Source: an uncultured Verrucomicrobiae bacterium
GTDB taxonomy: Bacteria; Verrucomicrobiota; Verrucomicrobiia; Limisphaerales; Palsa-1400
Reading direction: 5' to 3'
DNA: 64,000 nt
NCBI GenBank assembly: GCA_963707025.1
Contig: CAVPOM010000018.1
Span: forward strand, 352,001-416,000
Position 1 is the stretch's first letter. Each line of letters opens with the position of its first letter. The position numbers and the translations under genes are program-made. The notes under the pieces are model-generated. The model did no database searches and was not told the origin of the DNA. It saw only the letters and a program-made list of their open reading frames with translations. Shown here in pieces: positions 32,885 to 42,452 of the stretch.

Positions 32885-33156
32885 TTAAACCTCTTGTCTG
32901 TTCATTTCACTTCTTCACCCTGCCTTGTCTACCGAAAACTGGTGAGGCCGCCAATATACCCGTAGGCGTCGCAAAACCCAAATCCATAAACCTGGAGTTC
33001 AAAAGGCTCGGCACTTGTGACCTTATGCGTACCCCAAGCCACCGGGACGCGGGCTCCGGAATAGACACTGCTCCCAACCTGTAGGAAATTTGTCCCTGCC
33101 ACGTTCGTGCTATCCAAGTCGGTCGCTGATATCGCTGATTGTGGCACAATGAGATT

Positions 33157-34607
33157 CACAGCCATCCCACAGGAAATTGGAAAAAAGTGTTGGCTTGACC
33201 ATTTGAACCTGCCACAAGGCAGGCATGAAAAACAAAAAAATCAAACCAACACGGTCCCGGTTTAACGTTTTGCGCCAGATTTGCAATCTCATTCCTGCGC
33301 ATGAAGTCTCCAAAATAGCGCGGGAGACCGGGGCTCTGGATAAGTCGCGCACCTTCAGTCCGTGGAGTCACACGGTCAGTTTGCTGGACGCGCAACTCAC
33401 CCATTGCATCGGACTCAACGATCTGTGCGACTCGCTGCAATTGCATTCCGGGCCGCTGTCCACTTTGCGCGGCGCCAGCGCCCCCAGCCGCAACGGCCTC
33501 TCCCACGCCAACCGGGAGCGTCCGGCCCAGATGGCCGAACAACTCTTCTGGCGGGTCCTGGAGCATTTGAAAGCACAGACGCCCGGCTTTGCCGCGGGCC
33601 AGCGCCGTGGCCCCGCCTTCCGTTTCAAGATGCCCATCCATGTGATTGATAGCACGACCATGGAACTGGTGGCCAACTGCCTGGACTGGGCCAAGCACCG
33701 CCGGCGCAAGGCCGCCGCCAAAACCCATATGCGGTTGAATCTGCAGAATCTTTTGCCCGGTTTTGTCATTGTGGACACTGCCGCCGAGCACGACAACCGA
33801 CGGGCGCGGGAACTGTGCGCCGACTTGAAGAGCGGCGAAATCGCCTTGTTCGACAAGGGTTATGTGGACTTCGGCCACTTGCGGGATTTGGACGGGCGCG
33901 GGGTCTTTTGGGTGACGCGGGCCAAGGAGAACATGGGCTATGAGGTGGTGCGGAAAATGCCCGCCTCCAGAGACCCGAAGATTTTGCGCGACGAAGTGAT
34001 CGTCCTGAGCAACGAGAACAAACCCGCGCCGGAGTTGATGCGCCGGGTGGTGGCGCTGGTCGAGATTGATGGAGAGGAACGGGAAATGACCTTCCTGACC
34101 AACAACCTGGAGTGGAGTCCGCGCAGCGTGGCCGACCTTTACCGCTGCCGCTGGCAGATCGAAGTCTTCTTCAAACAAATCAAGCAGACCTTGCAGTTGG
34201 CGGATTTTCTGGGCCACAACGCCAACGCCGTGCGCTGGCAGGTGTGGACGGCGCTGTTGACCTACGTGCTGTTGCGCTACCTCAGTCACCTCTCCAACTG
34301 GGCGCACAGCTTCACCCGGCTGTTCACGATTTTGCGGGCGGCGCTCTGGGAGAAATATGATCTGCTCAATTTGCTGGCGTGCTATGGGACAGCAGGCGGC
34401 AGCTTTCGCCACTTGGCGCGGCCCGAGCAGGCGTATTTCCCCGGCTTCCAATAAAGCTATGGGACAGCACACGCGCCCAAACAGGCGCATACCAAACCCA
34501 AAAGCCAAACTCGGAAAAATCAAAATCTCATTTTACCCCGAAGACCAATTAAACCCTTGCAAATGAACAGGTCAGCACCAGACTTTTCCCCTTATGAGAC
34601 GGGTGTG
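33157..34607 (+). mobile_element. IS4-family insertion sequence, copy 2 (1451 bp)
   Basis: Same IRs as copy 1; 9-bp target duplication AATGAGATT at 33148-33156 and 34608-34616. Confidence 0.96.
33225..34454 (+). CDS. IS4-family transposase (intact, 409 aa)
   Basis: DST, DKGY, Y-x2-R-W-x2-E-x3-K signature. Confidence 0.95.
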   Translation: MKNKKIKPTRSRFNVLRQICNLIPAHEVSKIARETGALDKSRTFSPWSHTVSLLDAQLTHCIGLNDLCDSLQLHSGPLSTLRGASAPSRNGLSHANRERPAQMAEQLFWRVLEHLKAQTPGFAAGQRRGPAFRFKMPIHVIDSTTMELVANCLDWAKHRRRKAAAKTHMRLNLQNLLPGFVIVDTAAEHDNRRARELCADLKSGEIALFDKGYVDFGHLRDLDGRGVFWVTRAKENMGYEVVRKMPASRDPKILRDEVIVLSNENKPAPELMRRVVALVEIDGEEREMTFLTNNLEWSPRSVADLYRCRWQIEVFFKQIKQTLQLADFLGHNANAVRWQVWTALLTYVLLRYLSHLSNWAHSFTRLFTILRAALWEKYDLLNLLACYGTAGGSFRHLARPEQAYFPGFQ

Positions 34608-38112: not shown

Positions 38113-38826
38113 ATGAAATGCCTTGATTTAACCCTGCCCGGCGCGTCGGCCAATTTGGCGTGCGACGAGGCGTTGCTGGAGGCGTGCGAGGACAGCCCCG
38201 ATGCGGAGATGCTGCGTTTTTGGGAGCCGCGCCATTACTTCGTCGTGCTGGGTTACGCCAATCGGGCGGAGGCGGAAGTCAATCTGGCCGCGTGCCGGGA
38301 AGAGAAGGTGGGGATTTACCGGCGGTGCAGCGGCGGGGGCGCGGTGTTGCAGGGGCCGGGCTGCCTGAACTATGCGCTGATTTGCAATCTGGCCGCCCGT
38401 CCGGAGCTGCACAGCATCCCCGGCGCCAACGGCCATATCATGGCGCGGCAGCGCCAGGCCATGGCGGGCGTTTTGGGGCGGACGGTGCGGGTGGAAGGCA
38501 TCACGGATTTGGCGGTGGACGGCCGGAAATTTTCCGGCAACGCGCAACGGCGCAAACGGCAGGCGCTGATTTTTCACGGCACATTTCTGCTGCACTTCAA
38601 CCTGGCCATGATGGAAAAGTTCTTGCCCATGCCGTCGCGCCGGCCGGAGTACCGGCAGGAGCGGCCGCACGCGCAATTTCTGACCAACCTGGAGGTGCCG
38701 GCCGGGCTGATCAAAGGCGCCTTGCGGCAAGCCTGGTCGGCCGCCCAATCCTGCGAGCTGCCGCCGGTCATCCCGCCCCGCCTGGAGCAGAAATACGCGG
38801 CGGAGGAGTGGAACAGGAAGTTCTAG
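38113..38826 (+). CDS. Lipoate-protein ligase A family protein
   Basis: NLACDEALL, RRCSGGGAV, KFSGNAQ, HGTFL. Confidence 0.9.
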   Translation: MKCLDLTLPGASANLACDEALLEACEDSPDAEMLRFWEPRHYFVVLGYANRAEAEVNLAACREEKVGIYRRCSGGGAVLQGPGCLNYALICNLAARPELHSIPGANGHIMARQRQAMAGVLGRTVRVEGITDLAVDGRKFSGNAQRRKRQALIFHGTFLLHFNLAMMEKFLPMPSRRPEYRQERPHAQFLTNLEVPAGLIKGALRQAWSAAQSCELPPVIPPRLEQKYAAEEWNRKF

Positions 38827-38842
38827 TTGACGCTACAGTTGC

Positions 38843-38870
38843 TTGTCAAAACCTCCTGAATTGTTACGCT
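38843..38870 (+). promoter_or_regulatory. Putative sigma70 promoter of the tRNA gene
   Basis: TTGTCA, 16 nt, TACGCT with TG extended -10; 18 nt upstream of the tRNA. Confidence 0.55.
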
Positions 38871-38888
38871 GAACTCGAACGACGGCTC

Positions 38889-38964
38889 GCTTCCGCAGCT
38901 CAATTGGATGGAGCTACCGCCTCCCAAGCGGTAGATCCCGGTTCAATTCCGGGCGGGGGCGCCA
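38889..38964 (+). tRNA. tRNA with CCC anticodon (nominally Gly), atypical Arg-like body, CCA encoded
   Basis: Acceptor GCTTCCG/CGGGGGC, D stem GCTC/GAGC, anticodon stem ACCGC/GCGGT with loop CTCCCAA, T stem CCCGG/CCGGG with loop TTCAATT, G73-CCA; 76 nt. Confidence 0.88.
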
Positions 38965-39037
38965 TCTTTTTCCTGGTTTTCCGATGTCCGGTGGAAATAC
39001 GATTCGGGCCAACGGAAAACGCAGTTCGGAGAATACT

Positions 39038-41437
39038 ATGATTGCCGAAGAATTGAGGAAGACTTGTCCCGTCATGCCACGAGCGCTGCGAACTCAGGGT
39101 CTGAAAACCTCACTGGCCCATTCCAGCCCTGGTTCAGCTCGCTTATTCAGTTTGGCCGGCGGTTTCGCGCTGACGGTTGTTCGGGCTGTCGGCGTCCTGA
39201 TGTTGGCAGGGATGCCGGCGTTGAGAGCGGGAACGACCGTCGAGTGGAAAGGCGGCGCGGGCAATTGGGAAGAGGCAACGAGGTGGGGCGGAGCGCTGCC
39301 GTCGCGAACGTCTGAGGCGCGGATCAACGGCACGCCCGAGCAACCGAGCCAGGTGACGTTGTCCGCCACCGATGCGCTGCTGAGCCGGTTGGGTGTTGGC
39401 GATGGCGGCAACAGCCGGGCGTCGTTGGTCCTGGATGGTCCTTCCCTGGCGATTACTGCAGGCTGCGATGTCGGCAAATACGACGGCTCGGAAGGCCGCC
39501 TCTTGCTCAAGTCGGGACGTCTTTTTGTCAATACCATCTTCGTTTCCGGCGGCGGCGGCCCCGGGATGAGAGGACGGGGGGTTGTCGAAATTCAAAACGG
39601 CAGCATGGTCACCAAGTCCATCTTAATGGGGCTGTCTTCCGGCAGCCACTGCACGCTGCGGATGGTCGGTTCAAAAGCCTCGGGGGTGCTGGTGGAAGAC
39701 GGTTTACGCGTGGGCGTTTATAATTACTTGAGCCTGGAAAGCAATCCCCCGCCGAGCACGAGTGAATTGGATTTCGAGCTGGATGCCGATGGCGTCACAC
39801 CCGTCTTCACGTGGGGCAAGACCGAGGGGCGCGTTTATTTTCCTGTTCCCGATGGCAAAGGCAATGGCGTGGGAACATGCCAATTGCGAATCGGCCTGCT
39901 CGCCGCGCCGCCATCGGGCGACATTCTTCTGGTCGGTTCGGCCAACCCGTGCGAGGGCGGGTTCACCGGATTGGCAGGGGGCGCGCCGGTGCGGGCGGAG
40001 TTTGCGGGCAAAGCTTACGAGTGGACACTTACCTATCGAGGTGGCCCAAAGAAATGCGATATCCTGTTGACGAATGCGCGTGTCGCCGATGCCGGAGGCA
40101 GAATGACTCCTTACGTGACAGGAAAACCCGCAAAGACTTTCCGCATTGACCCGGCCCTTGTGCAATCCAGCTACCGGGAGTTTTACCGGCAGTGGGATGC
40201 GCAGTCACCTCCGCTGGGCAGCGGCACGTTGGCGTTTCCCGGAGCCGAAGGCTATGGAGCGTATTCTAAAGGCGGACGCGGCGGGAAAATCTTCATCGTA
40301 ACCAATCTCAGCGACTCCGGACCAGGCAGCCTGAGAGAAGCCATCGAGGCGAAGGGACCGCGCACGGTGGTTTTCGGAGTGGGCGGCATCATCGAGACGA
40401 CTGGCCTCGACGTTCGCGAACCATACCTCACCGTCGCCGGCCAGACGGCTCCCGGCGATGGAATTTGCATCAAGAAAGGCGCGGGCAACGCCAACGCATT
40501 CGATGTCTCGCGGACGCACGATGTGGTCCTGCGCTATCTGCGTTTTCGCGCCGGCAACAACACCGGCGACGTGCGCTGCGAATCCTTCCGCATCTCCGAC
40601 AGCGAGAATGTCATCGTTGACCACTGTTCGAGCAGCTGGGGCAATCCGGAAACATTCTCCGCCGCCGGGGCGGTGGACCGTTGCACGGTGCAATGGTGCA
40701 TCATGTCCGAAGGGAATAACGCCCAGGATCACGCCTTTTCAACCATCATAGCGGGAGACCGCAGCACGTGGCATCACAATCTATTCGCACACATGCGCAG
40801 TCGCGTTCCGCGCTGGGGAGACATCACGGTGCAATGCGACTTTCGTAATAATGTCATCTATGACTGGGGCAGTACTTGCGGTTATGGAGACATCCGCACC
40901 CTGGATTACGTCAGCAACTACCTTCGCGCAGGCCCCTCAACCACGCAACGTCCGCCGTACTTCATCATTGACCCGAAAGTCGCCCTGCCAGCCTCCTTAT
41001 ATTTGGACGGAAACATCATGACCGGAATGCCCAACGTCACCAGCGACAATTGGAAAGGTGTAAATGGACCACGAGTATTGCAAGCGTCGTCGCCGTTCTC
41101 CGCGCCCCCGGTGCGGACGCAATCGGCGCAGGAAGCCTTTGAACTGGTGCTTCAAAACGCCGGAGCGACTTTGCCCAAACGCGATGCTGTGGACGCGCGA
41201 GCCGTTTCCGATGCGCGCAACGGCACCGGCAAGATCATCAATAACGAGAGTGAGGTTGGCGGCTGGCCCGAATATAAGTCAGGCAATCCTCCGGTCTGTA
41301 GCGCCAACGACGGCATTCCGGATGAATGGAAGAAGGCGCACGCGCTCCCGTTGAACGATCTGAATGTGGCCAATGCGGTGAACGCCGAGGGATACACGGA
41401 GGTGGAGGTGTATTTGAATTCGCTGGTAGGAGATTGA
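39038..41437 (+). CDS. Pectate lyase-like (PL1-type) protein with N-terminal Gly-rich beta-repeat region
   Basis: LAFPGAEGYG, GGRGG..VTNL.DSGPGSLREA, AGQTAPGDG, IVDHCSSSW, HHNLFAH..SRVPR, DGIPDEW. Start uncertain. Confidence 0.85.
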   Translation: MIAEELRKTCPVMPRALRTQGLKTSLAHSSPGSARLFSLAGGFALTVVRAVGVLMLAGMPALRAGTTVEWKGGAGNWEEATRWGGALPSRTSEARINGTPEQPSQVTLSATDALLSRLGVGDGGNSRASLVLDGPSLAITAGCDVGKYDGSEGRLLLKSGRLFVNTIFVSGGGGPGMRGRGVVEIQNGSMVTKSILMGLSSGSHCTLRMVGSKASGVLVEDGLRVGVYNYLSLESNPPPSTSELDFELDADGVTPVFTWGKTEGRVYFPVPDGKGNGVGTCQLRIGLLAAPPSGDILLVGSANPCEGGFTGLAGGAPVRAEFAGKAYEWTLTYRGGPKKCDILLTNARVADAGGRMTPYVTGKPAKTFRIDPALVQSSYREFYRQWDAQSPPLGSGTLAFPGAEGYGAYSKGGRGGKIFIVTNLSDSGPGSLREAIEAKGPRTVVFGVGGIIETTGLDVREPYLTVAGQTAPGDGICIKKGAGNANAFDVSRTHDVVLRYLRFRAGNNTGDVRCESFRISDSENVIVDHCSSSWGNPETFSAAGAVDRCTVQWCIMSEGNNAQDHAFSTIIAGDRSTWHHNLFAHMRSRVPRWGDITVQCDFRNNVIYDWGSTCGYGDIRTLDYVSNYLRAGPSTTQRPPYFIIDPKVALPASLYLDGNIMTGMPNVTSDNWKGVNGPRVLQASSPFSAPPVRTQSAQEAFELVLQNAGATLPKRDAVDARAVSDARNGTGKIINNESEVGGWPEYKSGNPPVCSANDGIPDEWKKAHALPLNDLNVANAVNAEGYTEVEVYLNSLVGD

Positions 41438-41799
41438 GCCTCGGCTTAATGCGCTCGGTGCTTGAATTCAACTGTCCTTCCCTCGTTCGTGTAACAGCAA
41501 GGCTCTCCACATGCCCCGACACCAATTGGGTCATCTCCAACATGCGGACTTGTTTTTTCGGACATCACTTATGATAATCGAAGAACTGATGGCTATTTTA
41601 TACCTCATCATGAACTAATAAGGGGGAAGGAGCTGGTTATTAGCACCAAGTAGCGTATTCGATGAGCAGGGCAGACTTTGCCTGAATGAGAGGATCATGA
41701 CAGCTTCTGGATGGATAGGCTTGTGCCACAGGAAATGATGGCACAACAGTTATGAAATGGCACCAGCAGGGACATCATGCAAACCTTGCGACGGCCATG

Positions 41800-41915
41800 T
41801 TTTGCCCAAAACCTCCTGGAGGAAGGCCCCGCCTCCGCCTTCTTCGATGCTCCCGGCCCGGCCACGTTGAGCACCTTGATGCCGTGATCCTGGATAAAAC
41901 GGCGCAGTTCGATTT
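41800..41915 (-). pseudogene. Remnant of putative molybdenum-carrier / SLOG-family gene
   Basis: LRRFIQDHGIKVLNVAGPGASK resembles the LNVAGPRxS motif; surrounding sequence non-coding. Confidence 0.45.
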
Positions 41916-41988
41916 CAGGGGATAATTGCCTGAGAATGACCTGTTTTGTCATTGACTGCAAATCCCTGCCTGCCTTACAAATTCCGCC

Positions 41989-42366
41989 ATGACAAATATC
42001 ACAAGTTTAACCTCAACCCAACTCAACCAAATTATCGCCATCAAGCAGAAGATTGAGGCTCTCCAAGGCCAAATCGAATCAATCGCTGGTGGCGGAGGCG
42101 AAATTCCAATCCCGTCAGCCGAAGAGGCGGCCGCTCCCGCCAGGCGCAAATATCACATGACCGCCGCCCACAAGCGTAAACTCATTAAAGCCCTGGTGCG
42201 GGCGCGGAAAATACGCTGGGCAAAGGTCAAAGGGAAGGCGAAGGGCAACTCAAAGCCGGCCAGGATGAAATATCGGCGCGCCAGTCCGGCGTTGAGGGCC
42301 AAACTCTCTGCCGCAGCCAAAGCGAGATGGGCCAGGGTGAAGGCGGAAGGGAAGAAGACGCTTTAG
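41989..42366 (+). CDS. Small basic protein, putative DNA-binding
   Basis: N-terminal heptad segment, Gly/Pro/Ala linker, two Lys/Arg-rich repeats ending RWAKVK / RWARVK. Confidence 0.75.
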   Translation: MTNITSLTSTQLNQIIAIKQKIEALQGQIESIAGGGGEIPIPSAEEAAAPARRKYHMTAAHKRKLIKALVRARKIRWAKVKGKAKGNSKPARMKYRRASPALRAKLSAAAKARWARVKAEGKKTL

Positions 42367-42452
42367 CCGAAATCAAGGACGAGTTGGATGCTGGCCGGCC
42401 ATGATGTGCAGCACAGGCGGGAGGAATTACTGTAGAGGAAGTTCCAGCGGGG

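What the first reader, a model, noticed from the sequence alone, without database searches (positions are those of the whole stretch)
38889..38964. Identity-conflict tRNA: Gly anticodon (CCC) on an Arg-like body with C8/G21
Seen: all four stems pair, CCA is encoded and a plausible promoter precedes it, yet it has A20, G73, U3-G70 and U4-G69 wobbles, and C8 and G21 in place of the near-invariant U8 and A21. Established: bacterial tRNA-Gly uses U73 and G3-C70; A20, C35 and a purine at 73 are ArgRS determinants, which also wants U/G36. GGG still encodes Gly in this window (rfbF GGLGT uses GGG at conserved glycines), so wholesale recoding is unlikely. Inference: an anticodon-shifted tRNA-Arg(CCU/CCG) that could be edited, mistranslate GGG, act as a non-ribosomal aminoacyl donor or regulator, or be decaying.
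Basis: partly seen in the sequence, partly recalled or inferred. Interest (0 to 1): 0.7.

Follow-up and report, generated by a model that had tools for sequence, protein, structure and literature searches.

The report
Decaying spare arginine tRNA gene
An extra copy of an arginine tRNA gene, carried in on a small inserted piece of DNA, has picked up several damaging mutations, one of which makes its anticodon read as glycine; it is most likely an ordinary dying gene rather than a tRNA that bends the genetic code.

Summary
In detail: 38889-38964 is a tRNA-shaped gene with anticodon CCC, A20, G73, C8 and G21. It is a tRNA-Arg(CCU) of a subtype found in related genomes, 71 of 76 bases identical to intact copies. 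The five private changes (C4U, U8C, A16U, A21G, U36C) all hit positions nearly invariant in 57 metagenome copies, none of which has C36. A20, G73 and U3-G70 are inherited Arg features; no Gly determinant was gained. The genome keeps a canonical Gly(CCC) and a canonical Arg(CCU). GGG still aligns with Gly. One ArgRS and no THUMP-domain editor were found. The gene sits at the edge of a 3.6-kb insertion, bounded by a 12-bp repeat and missing from four congeners. Base-call error is unlikely to explain five changes, though no read covers the gene. Best reading: a redundant passenger tRNA decaying under relaxed selection (0.8). Residual Arg-for-Gly mistranslation is not excluded (0.06). Similar one-off Arg-body/CCC genes occur in a few unrelated genomes, and the scan noted one on other DNA earlier with the same verdict.

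The parts
38889..38964 (+). Degenerate tRNA-Arg(CCU)-derived gene with anticodon now CCC (38923-38925); private changes at 38892 (C4U), 38896 (U8C), 38904 (A16U), 38910 (A21G), 38925 (U36C)
   Evidence: Arg-CCU model 85.1 bits against Gly-CCC model 48.9 bits
38843..38870 (+). Probable promoter of the tRNA gene: TTGTCA, 16-nt spacer, TG-extended TACGCT
   Evidence: read; shared with loci bearing intact copies; below the scanner's threshold; activity inferred
38815..38826 (+). Left copy of a 12-bp direct repeat, the last bases of the lipoate-ligase-family gene
   Evidence: 0 of 100 shuffles gave two matches
42436..42447 (+). Right copy of the 12-bp direct repeat (one mismatch), closing the insertion
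38827..42447 (.). 3.6-kb lineage-specific insertion that carries the tRNA gene; no integrase or synthetase gene recognised in it
   Evidence: G001 joins 38826 to 42452, G003 joins 38827 to 42450 with about 125 other bases; G002 and G004 also put the RRM gene next to the ligase gene
39038..41437 (+). Pectate-lyase-like cargo gene downstream of the tRNA on the same strand (start codon inferred; ORF open from 38984)
   Evidence: PF00544 below cut-off; PelZ model below cut-off; 8 of 150 other genomes of the order match
38113..38826 (+). Lipoate-protein-ligase-family gene, the chromosomal neighbour at whose 3' end the insertion lies; not functionally linked
   Evidence: PF21948, E 1.3e-35

Best explanation
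The gene is a second, redundant tRNA-Arg(CCU) that arrived with its own promoter on a 3.6-kb insertion at the 3' end of the lipoate ligase gene (shown by comparison). Because the genome already had its own Arg(CCU), selection on the newcomer relaxed (inferred) and it accumulated five point changes, three of them at positions that tRNAs and this subtype keep fixed (shown). U36C is one of these and merely relabels it as Gly. The transcript, if made, probably folds poorly (loss of the U8-A14-A21 triple, established tRNA structure; alternative D/T-arm pairing predicted) and is a poor substrate for both synthetases: no U73 or G3-C70 for GlyRS, no U/G36 for ArgRS (inferred from published identity rules). 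It is a young pseudogene; the promoter may still read through into the cargo gene.
For: 71/76 identity to intact Arg(CCU) in G023 and G007, 42 identical positions to family Gly(CCC). In 57 full-length metagenome copies: U36 57, A21 57, C4 57, U8 56, A16 56, the one exception being a row offset by an insertion. Rfam score 53.3 against 63.6 for the intact copies. Canonical Arg(CCU) on C9, same type as in G003 and G005; canonical Gly(CCC) at the cut end of C12. Insertion absent from 4 of 5 congeners and bounded by a 12-bp repeat that has itself drifted at 1 of 12 positions. Other damaged copies of the same subtype in G012 and G026. Two distant CCC variants lie within 1 kb of a near-identical intact Arg(CCU), and carry further damage (L132, L133). 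D and T arms have predicted pairing probability 0.0 against 0.88 and 0.92 in the intact copy. One ArgRS, no THUMP match.
Against: All four stems can still pair, CCA and the promoter are intact, and there is no indel, so decay is early and not proven. The folding result is weak: 10 of 57 of the genome's own tRNAs also have T-arm probability under 0.1, among them housekeeping genes. All five changes fall in bases 1-37 and none in 38-76 (about 0.05 two-sided by my arithmetic), which plain random decay does not predict. A few distant Arg-body/CCC genes look fully intact (70.2 and 66.5 bits). tRNA-ProX, a functional mistranslator family, also has G21 (PMC11415595 passage). No second strain of this species was available to show polymorphism.
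Confidence: 0.8

Rival explanations
1. Active mistranslator: the gene is transcribed, ArgRS charges it through A20, C35 and G73 despite C36, and it inserts Arg at a fraction of GGG codons in competition with the canonical Gly(CCC).
For: A20 is the strongest bacterial ArgRS determinant and is retained with C35 and G73 (PMC9976931 passages; that review's table gives U/G36 but its text reads U/C36). Promoter and CCA intact. Arg-body/CCC genes recur in unrelated genomes, some with intact bodies. The alignment test excludes recoding, not low-level misreading.
Against: C36 is in 0 of 57 subtype copies, 0 of 400 other genomes of the phylum and 0 of 60 relatives of the best distant case. U8 and A21 are lost, which a maintained decoder would be expected to keep. 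No dedicated synthetase as in tRNA-ProX/ProRSx: one ArgRS only. Position 36 accepts G or U in cytoplasmic tRNA-Arg (PMC4615739 passage).
Confidence: 0.06
2. The decoding role is lost but the promoter-plus-tRNA-like leader is kept because it serves the downstream cargo gene or another non-ribosomal role (processing site, aminoacyl donor, regulatory RNA).
For: The cargo ORF starts about 75 bases behind the CCA on the same strand with no terminator-like site between. The same subtype lies 12 bases ahead of a cas9-like gene in G026 and five metagenome loci, so it often heads a transcript. The 3' half is unchanged.
Against: The closest homologue of the cargo gene (72%, G084) has no such tRNA ahead of it, only a divergently oriented Arg(UCU). 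No aminoacyl-transferase-like gene was recognised among the eleven neighbouring ORFs scanned. The allele is not conserved anywhere searched.
Confidence: 0.07
3. Assembly artefact: the real gene reads CCU and some or all of the odd bases are base-call errors.
For: The assembly is error-prone for indels: 18 of 192 genes shared with G003 and 5 of 79 shared with G007 are split by frameshifts, and the only Arg(ACG) gene has an extra base that its G003 twin and its own downstream repeat lack. No contig covers the tRNA. Four of five changes are transitions.
Against: Substitution differences between 83 IS copies are 55 in 116,137 bases, at most about 5 in 10,000, so 0.04 errors are expected in 76 bases; five is not credible, and a single site is about 100 times likelier to be a real change in a gene already carrying four others (my arithmetic). 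The same local contexts are read normally in the genome's other Arg tRNAs. Three contigs of run X1 match 553 flanking bases without a difference (may be the source sample).
Confidence: 0.04
4. C-to-U editing restores U8 (as in Methanopyrus kandleri) and perhaps U36, giving a normal Arg(CCU).
For: Two of the changes are T-to-C and C8-to-U8 editing exists in one archaeon (PMC3695527, search listing and start of abstract).
Against: Only 1 of 68 CCA-ending tRNA genes in this genome has C8, against 30 species in M. kandleri; no THUMP domain found in the genome (88% complete); editing would not repair G21.
Confidence: 0.02
5. A tRNA being recruited as a new tRNA-Gly(CCC) (alloacceptor shift in progress).
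For: C35 and C36, G1-C72 and C2-G71 match bacterial Gly identity; anticodon shifts are a known route of tRNA evolution (PMC3923123, listing only).
Against: No U73, no G3-C70, A20 kept; Gly model 48.9 bits, lower than the intact Arg copy scores with the same model (52.1); a canonical Gly(CCC) already exists.
Confidence: 0.01

Closest known systems
Bacterial tRNA-Arg(CCU), subtype of genomes G023, G007, G021, G026, G018 and 57 metagenome copies
   Same: 71 of 76 bases, D loop with A20-U20a, anticodon stem, 4-nt variable loop, T arm, upstream promoter
   Different: U4, C8, U16, G21 and anticodon base C36, none seen in register in any other copy
High-scoring tRNA pseudogenes with mutated anticodons (isotype/anticodon mismatch of tRNAscan-SE 2.0, PMC8450103, passages read)
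   Same: Body scores as one isotype, anticodon names another; reduced general score; redundant copy. [quoted passage not shown]
   Different: tRNAscan-SE itself could not be run; its pseudogene flag needs sub-scores not computed here; stems and CCA are still intact
tRNA-ProX / ProRSx dual-identity mistranslators of Streptomyces and Kitasatospora (PMC11415595, passages read)
   Same: Body of one amino acid with the anticodon of another; G21 in place of A21; coexists with canonical tRNAs
   Different: ProX is a conserved family co-encoded with its own synthetase and keeps A33/A34 features; this gene is a singleton, has no partner synthetase, and has lost U8
C8 tRNAs edited by CDAT8 in Methanopyrus kandleri (PMC3695527, listing and start of abstract; enzyme name and THUMP domain recalled)
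   Same: C at position 8
   Different: There 30 tRNA species carry C8; here 1 of 68, in a bacterium with no THUMP match

Membership tests
Bacterial tRNA-Arg (descent) | Body closest to Arg(CCU) genes | tested here: met
   71/76 to G023/G007; model R1 85.1 bits against R2 48.9
Bacterial tRNA-Arg (function) | A20, C35, A/G73 | tested here: met
   read; rules from PMC9976931 table
Bacterial tRNA-Arg (function) | U or G at 36 | tested here: not met
   C36 (38925); 57 of 57 subtype copies have U36
Bacterial tRNA-Arg (function) | Charged with Arg by ArgRS | not testable with these tools
   needs an aminoacylation assay
Bacterial tRNA-Gly | C35, C36, G1-C72, C2-G71 | tested here: met
Bacterial tRNA-Gly | U73 and G3-C70 | tested here: not met
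   G73 and U3-G70; all 10 family Gly(CCC) rows aligned have G3-C70 and U73
Canonical elongator tRNA core | U8 and A21 (U8-A14-A21 triple; recalled structure) | tested here: not met
   C8, G21; U8 and A21 invariant in 22 Arg(CCU) rows
tRNA pseudogene / redundant decaying copy | A functional copy of the parent gene and of the nominal anticodon elsewhere in the genome | tested here: met
   Arg(CCU) C9:109110-109185; Gly(CCC) C12:1-60, 3' end cut by the contig end
tRNA pseudogene / redundant decaying copy | Private changes at conserved positions, not shared with relatives | tested here: met
tRNA pseudogene / redundant decaying copy | No mature, charged product | not testable with these tools
   no RNA run listed
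Dual-identity mistranslator (tRNA-ProX type) | Conserved across related genomes | tested here: not met
   0 of 57 copies, 0 of 400 phylum genomes
Dual-identity mistranslator (tRNA-ProX type) | Co-encoded dedicated synthetase | tested here: not met
   one PF00750 match, on another contig; none among neighbours; genome 88% complete
Sense-codon reassignment (GGG to Arg) | Codon aligns with the new amino acid and the old tRNA is lost | tested here: not met
   GGG opposite Gly 1358 of 1570, Arg 58, like other Gly codons; Gly(CCC) present
C8-edited tRNAs | Many C8 tRNA genes and a deaminase-THUMP enzyme | tested here: not met
   1 of 68; no PF02926 match

The most novel reading that the evidence does not exclude
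The gene is still transcribed from its conserved promoter, a fraction matures and is arginylated through A20, C35 and G73, and it puts Arg at GGG codons: a natural Gly-to-Arg mistranslator needing no partner enzyme. The intact-looking Arg-body/CCC genes in unrelated bacteria (for example L130, L141) would be independent origins of the same short-lived or tolerated state.
Probability: 0.06. Interest if true: 0.6.

Novelty: new member of a known kind. Interest (0 to 1): 0.12.

Why it matters
As a pseudogene it matters little: it is a clean example of why anticodon-only annotation mislabels spare tRNA copies (ARAGORN reports this as the genome's only Gly-CCC while the real one is cut by a contig end). 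If it were charged with Arg it would be a natural test of how much bacterial ArgRS depends on base 36 and of how much Gly-to-Arg misreading a cell tolerates.

Tried and rejected
Read check: the look-up of sequencing runs listed 3 DNA runs of one study and no RNA holder (no evidence on expression); laid contigs covered flanks but gave no matching piece across the tRNA. Link to the lipoate ligase gene: 0 of 29 relatives' loci have a tRNA behind it and 0 of 58 metagenome loci of the subtype hold a ligase homologue within 1.2 kb. Phage origin: 0 matches for the subtype in viral contigs. Relaxed ARAGORN thresholds gave mostly noise and were replaced by the default run. Promoter scanner found nothing. 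The first codon table kept shadow frames; it was repeated with a coding filter, some shadow frames remain. Folding as proof of non-function was downgraded after the control. Gene conversion from the genome's Arg(UCG) would explain U4 and U16 (3 mismatches against 4 over bases 1-27) but this is too small a difference to claim. A control for whether CCC is enriched over other wrong anticodons on Arg bodies could not be run, the one genome-wide scan having been used. Paper searches listed no paper on a bacterial Arg-body tRNA with a CCC anticodon; the library lacks most subscription journals, so this is not proof that none exists. No supplements were opened.

Full report
Observation. ARAGORN finds one tRNA in the window, 38889-38964 (+), anticodon CCC; Rfam RF00005 scores it 53.3 bits over the whole model.

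Descent. A search of the 30 other genomes of the family with the gene and its upstream region matched 6 of 30, none of the 5 congeners. The best matches are all tRNA-Arg(CCU). The copies in G023 and G007 differ from the window gene at five positions only: C4U, U8C, A16U, A21G, U36C. A model built from 22 Arg(CCU) genes scores the window gene 85.1 bits (an intact copy identical to a training row: 99.6); a model from 10 Gly(CCC) genes scores it 48.9, below the 52.1 it gives the intact Arg copy. A metagenome scan with base 36 left free returned 58 loci, 57 full-length, 17 distinct sequences, many from related samples and so not independent: U36 in 57, A21 in 57, C4 in 57, U8 in 56, A16 in 56; the odd row is offset by a one-base insertion. 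U3-G70 is in 22 of the 57 and G73 in 1 of 57 plus G023 and G007, so these and A20 are inherited Arg features. No Gly determinant was gained: bacterial Gly identity needs U73 and G3-C70, Arg identity A20, C35, U/G36, A/G73 (PMC9976931, passages; its running text prints U/C36 where its table prints U/G36; PMC4615739, passages, says G or U).

Redundancy. The genome (6.96 Mb, 18 contigs, 88% complete) has 77 ARAGORN calls, including a normal Arg(CCU) on C9 of the type found in G003 and G005. A canonical Gly(CCC) lies at the cut end of C12 and was missed by ARAGORN; it scores 77.4 bits on 60 of 74 model positions. GGG is not recoded: in 192 genes aligned with G003 it faces Gly 1358 of 1570 times and Arg 58, against 780 and 54 of 897 for GGA; in 79 genes aligned with G007, 366 and 8 of 480 (40 regions of at most 20 kb from two genomes were used). 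This excludes reassignment, not low-level misreading. There is one ArgRS match, no THUMP match, and this is the only C8 gene among 68 ending in CCA.

Context. None of 29 relatives' loci has a tRNA behind the lipoate ligase gene. In G001 the ligase stop codon joins directly to what is 42452 in the window; G003, G002 and G004 show the same gene order, G005 another neighbour. The 3.6 kb between is bounded by a 12-bp direct repeat of the ligase gene's end, 38815-38826 and 42436-42447, one mismatch, not seen twice in any of 100 shuffles. It holds the promoter and tRNA, a pectate-lyase-like gene, a YpsA-like fragment and a small basic ORF, with no integrase or synthetase recognised. The subtype has no fixed neighbourhood in relatives, is followed by a recombinase gene in G021, and is damaged in G012 and G026 as well. 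About 50 bases of upstream sequence with TTGTCA-16-TACGCT are shared with loci of intact copies, so transcription is plausible; the scanner did not list it.

Artefact? The assembly has indel errors: 18 of 192 and 5 of 79 shared genes are frameshift-split, and the single Arg(ACG) carries an extra base absent from its G003 twin. Substitutions are rarer: 55 in 116,137 bases over 83 copies of two IS elements, an upper bound. That predicts 0.04 errors in 76 bases. Run X1 matched 553 flanking bases exactly but no matching contig crosses the tRNA, so the letters remain unconfirmed by reads.

Structure. The intact copy folds as a cloverleaf (D 0.88, T 0.92); the window gene's minimum-energy fold is a rod with D and T arms at 0.0, the cloverleaf 6.3 kcal/mol higher, driven jointly by U16, G21 and C8. 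The control weakens this: 10 of 57 of the genome's tRNAs, some housekeeping, also have T-arm probability under 0.1, though 16 of 17 subtype sequences are above 0.9. The Rfam score is 10 bits below the intact copies (53.3 against 63.6).

Is there a family of such tRNAs? An exact-pattern scan of 185,579 species genomes for an Arg-type D loop with CCC gave 14 loci in scattered phyla; a few are expected by chance (my estimate, about 4), and ARAGORN called 8 as tRNA. Two sit within 1 kb of a near-identical intact Arg(CCU) and carry further damage, one with G21; another has C8. Scores of the 8 that passed Rfam's cut-off run from 29.5 to 70.2 among the 9 such loci submitted. All 5 genomes checked have canonical Gly(CCC) and Arg(CCU). 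The best one (L130) has no CCC counterpart in 60 relatives, 21 of which match the pattern with UCU. Within the window's phylum only this genome of 401 matches. The pattern is one of repeated one-off accidents in spare copies, not a conserved family.

Verdict. Shown: descent from Arg(CCU), private changes at conserved sites, redundancy, location on an insertion, no recoding. Inferred: relaxed selection, poor folding and charging. Unexplained: all five changes lie in the 5' half. Decaying passenger 0.8; leader or other non-ribosomal role 0.07; Arg-at-GGG mistranslator 0.06; base-call error 0.04; editing 0.02; recruitment to Gly 0.01. Interest 0.12.

Noticed in passing
L044:3054-6201 (G026:C3); metagenome loci L147, L161, L173, L192, L197: The same tRNA-Arg(CCU) subtype lies 12 bases upstream of the start codon of a cas9-like gene (RuvC_III and HNH_4 matches in L044, over 1019 aa). 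In the five metagenome loci the frame closes after 48-56 codons; in L044 the tRNA has a damaged 5' end and no CCA. Suggests cas9 transcribed from a tRNA promoter, often decaying.
   Followed up: partly
G000 contig ends C1, C4, C6, C7, C8, C12, C13, C18: Many contigs break inside tRNA-Gly or tRNA-Ser genes or their 3' repeats, which hides the canonical Gly(CCC), Gly(UCC) and two Ser genes from ARAGORN and points to several islands integrated at these tRNAs.
   Followed up: partly
G000:C18:489930-490004 (-): A second degenerate spare tRNA, Gly(UCC), with a D loop lacking G18-G19 and an extra base in the T stem; the canonical Gly(UCC) is at the cut start of C18.
   Followed up: partly
G000:C2:106000-112600, C4:150700-153900, C8:72400-81800: Three arrays of atypical tRNA genes, partly homologous to each other, including anticodons rare in bacteria such as Arg(GCG) and a long-armed UAU gene.
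   Followed up: no
window 33150-34560 and G000:C18:581400-582800: Two insertion sequences with 47 and 36 near-identical copies in the genome, a recent expansion.
   Followed up: partly
G000:C4:650336-650410 (-): The only tRNA-Arg(ACG) has one extra base in the acceptor stem, absent from the G003 gene and from its own repeat about 60 kb downstream; probably an assembly indel.
   Followed up: yes
L130:1483-1558 (-), L141:1485-1560 (+): Two Dehalococcoidia genomes each hold an intact-looking Arg-type body with CCC anticodon (70.2 and 66.5 bits); L141 has U73. Better candidates than the window gene for a charging test; L130's is not shared by 60 relatives searched.
   Followed up: partly
window 41989-42366 (+): Small lysine/arginine-rich ORF of 125 aa inside the insertion, with no Pfam or NCBIfam match.
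   Followed up: no
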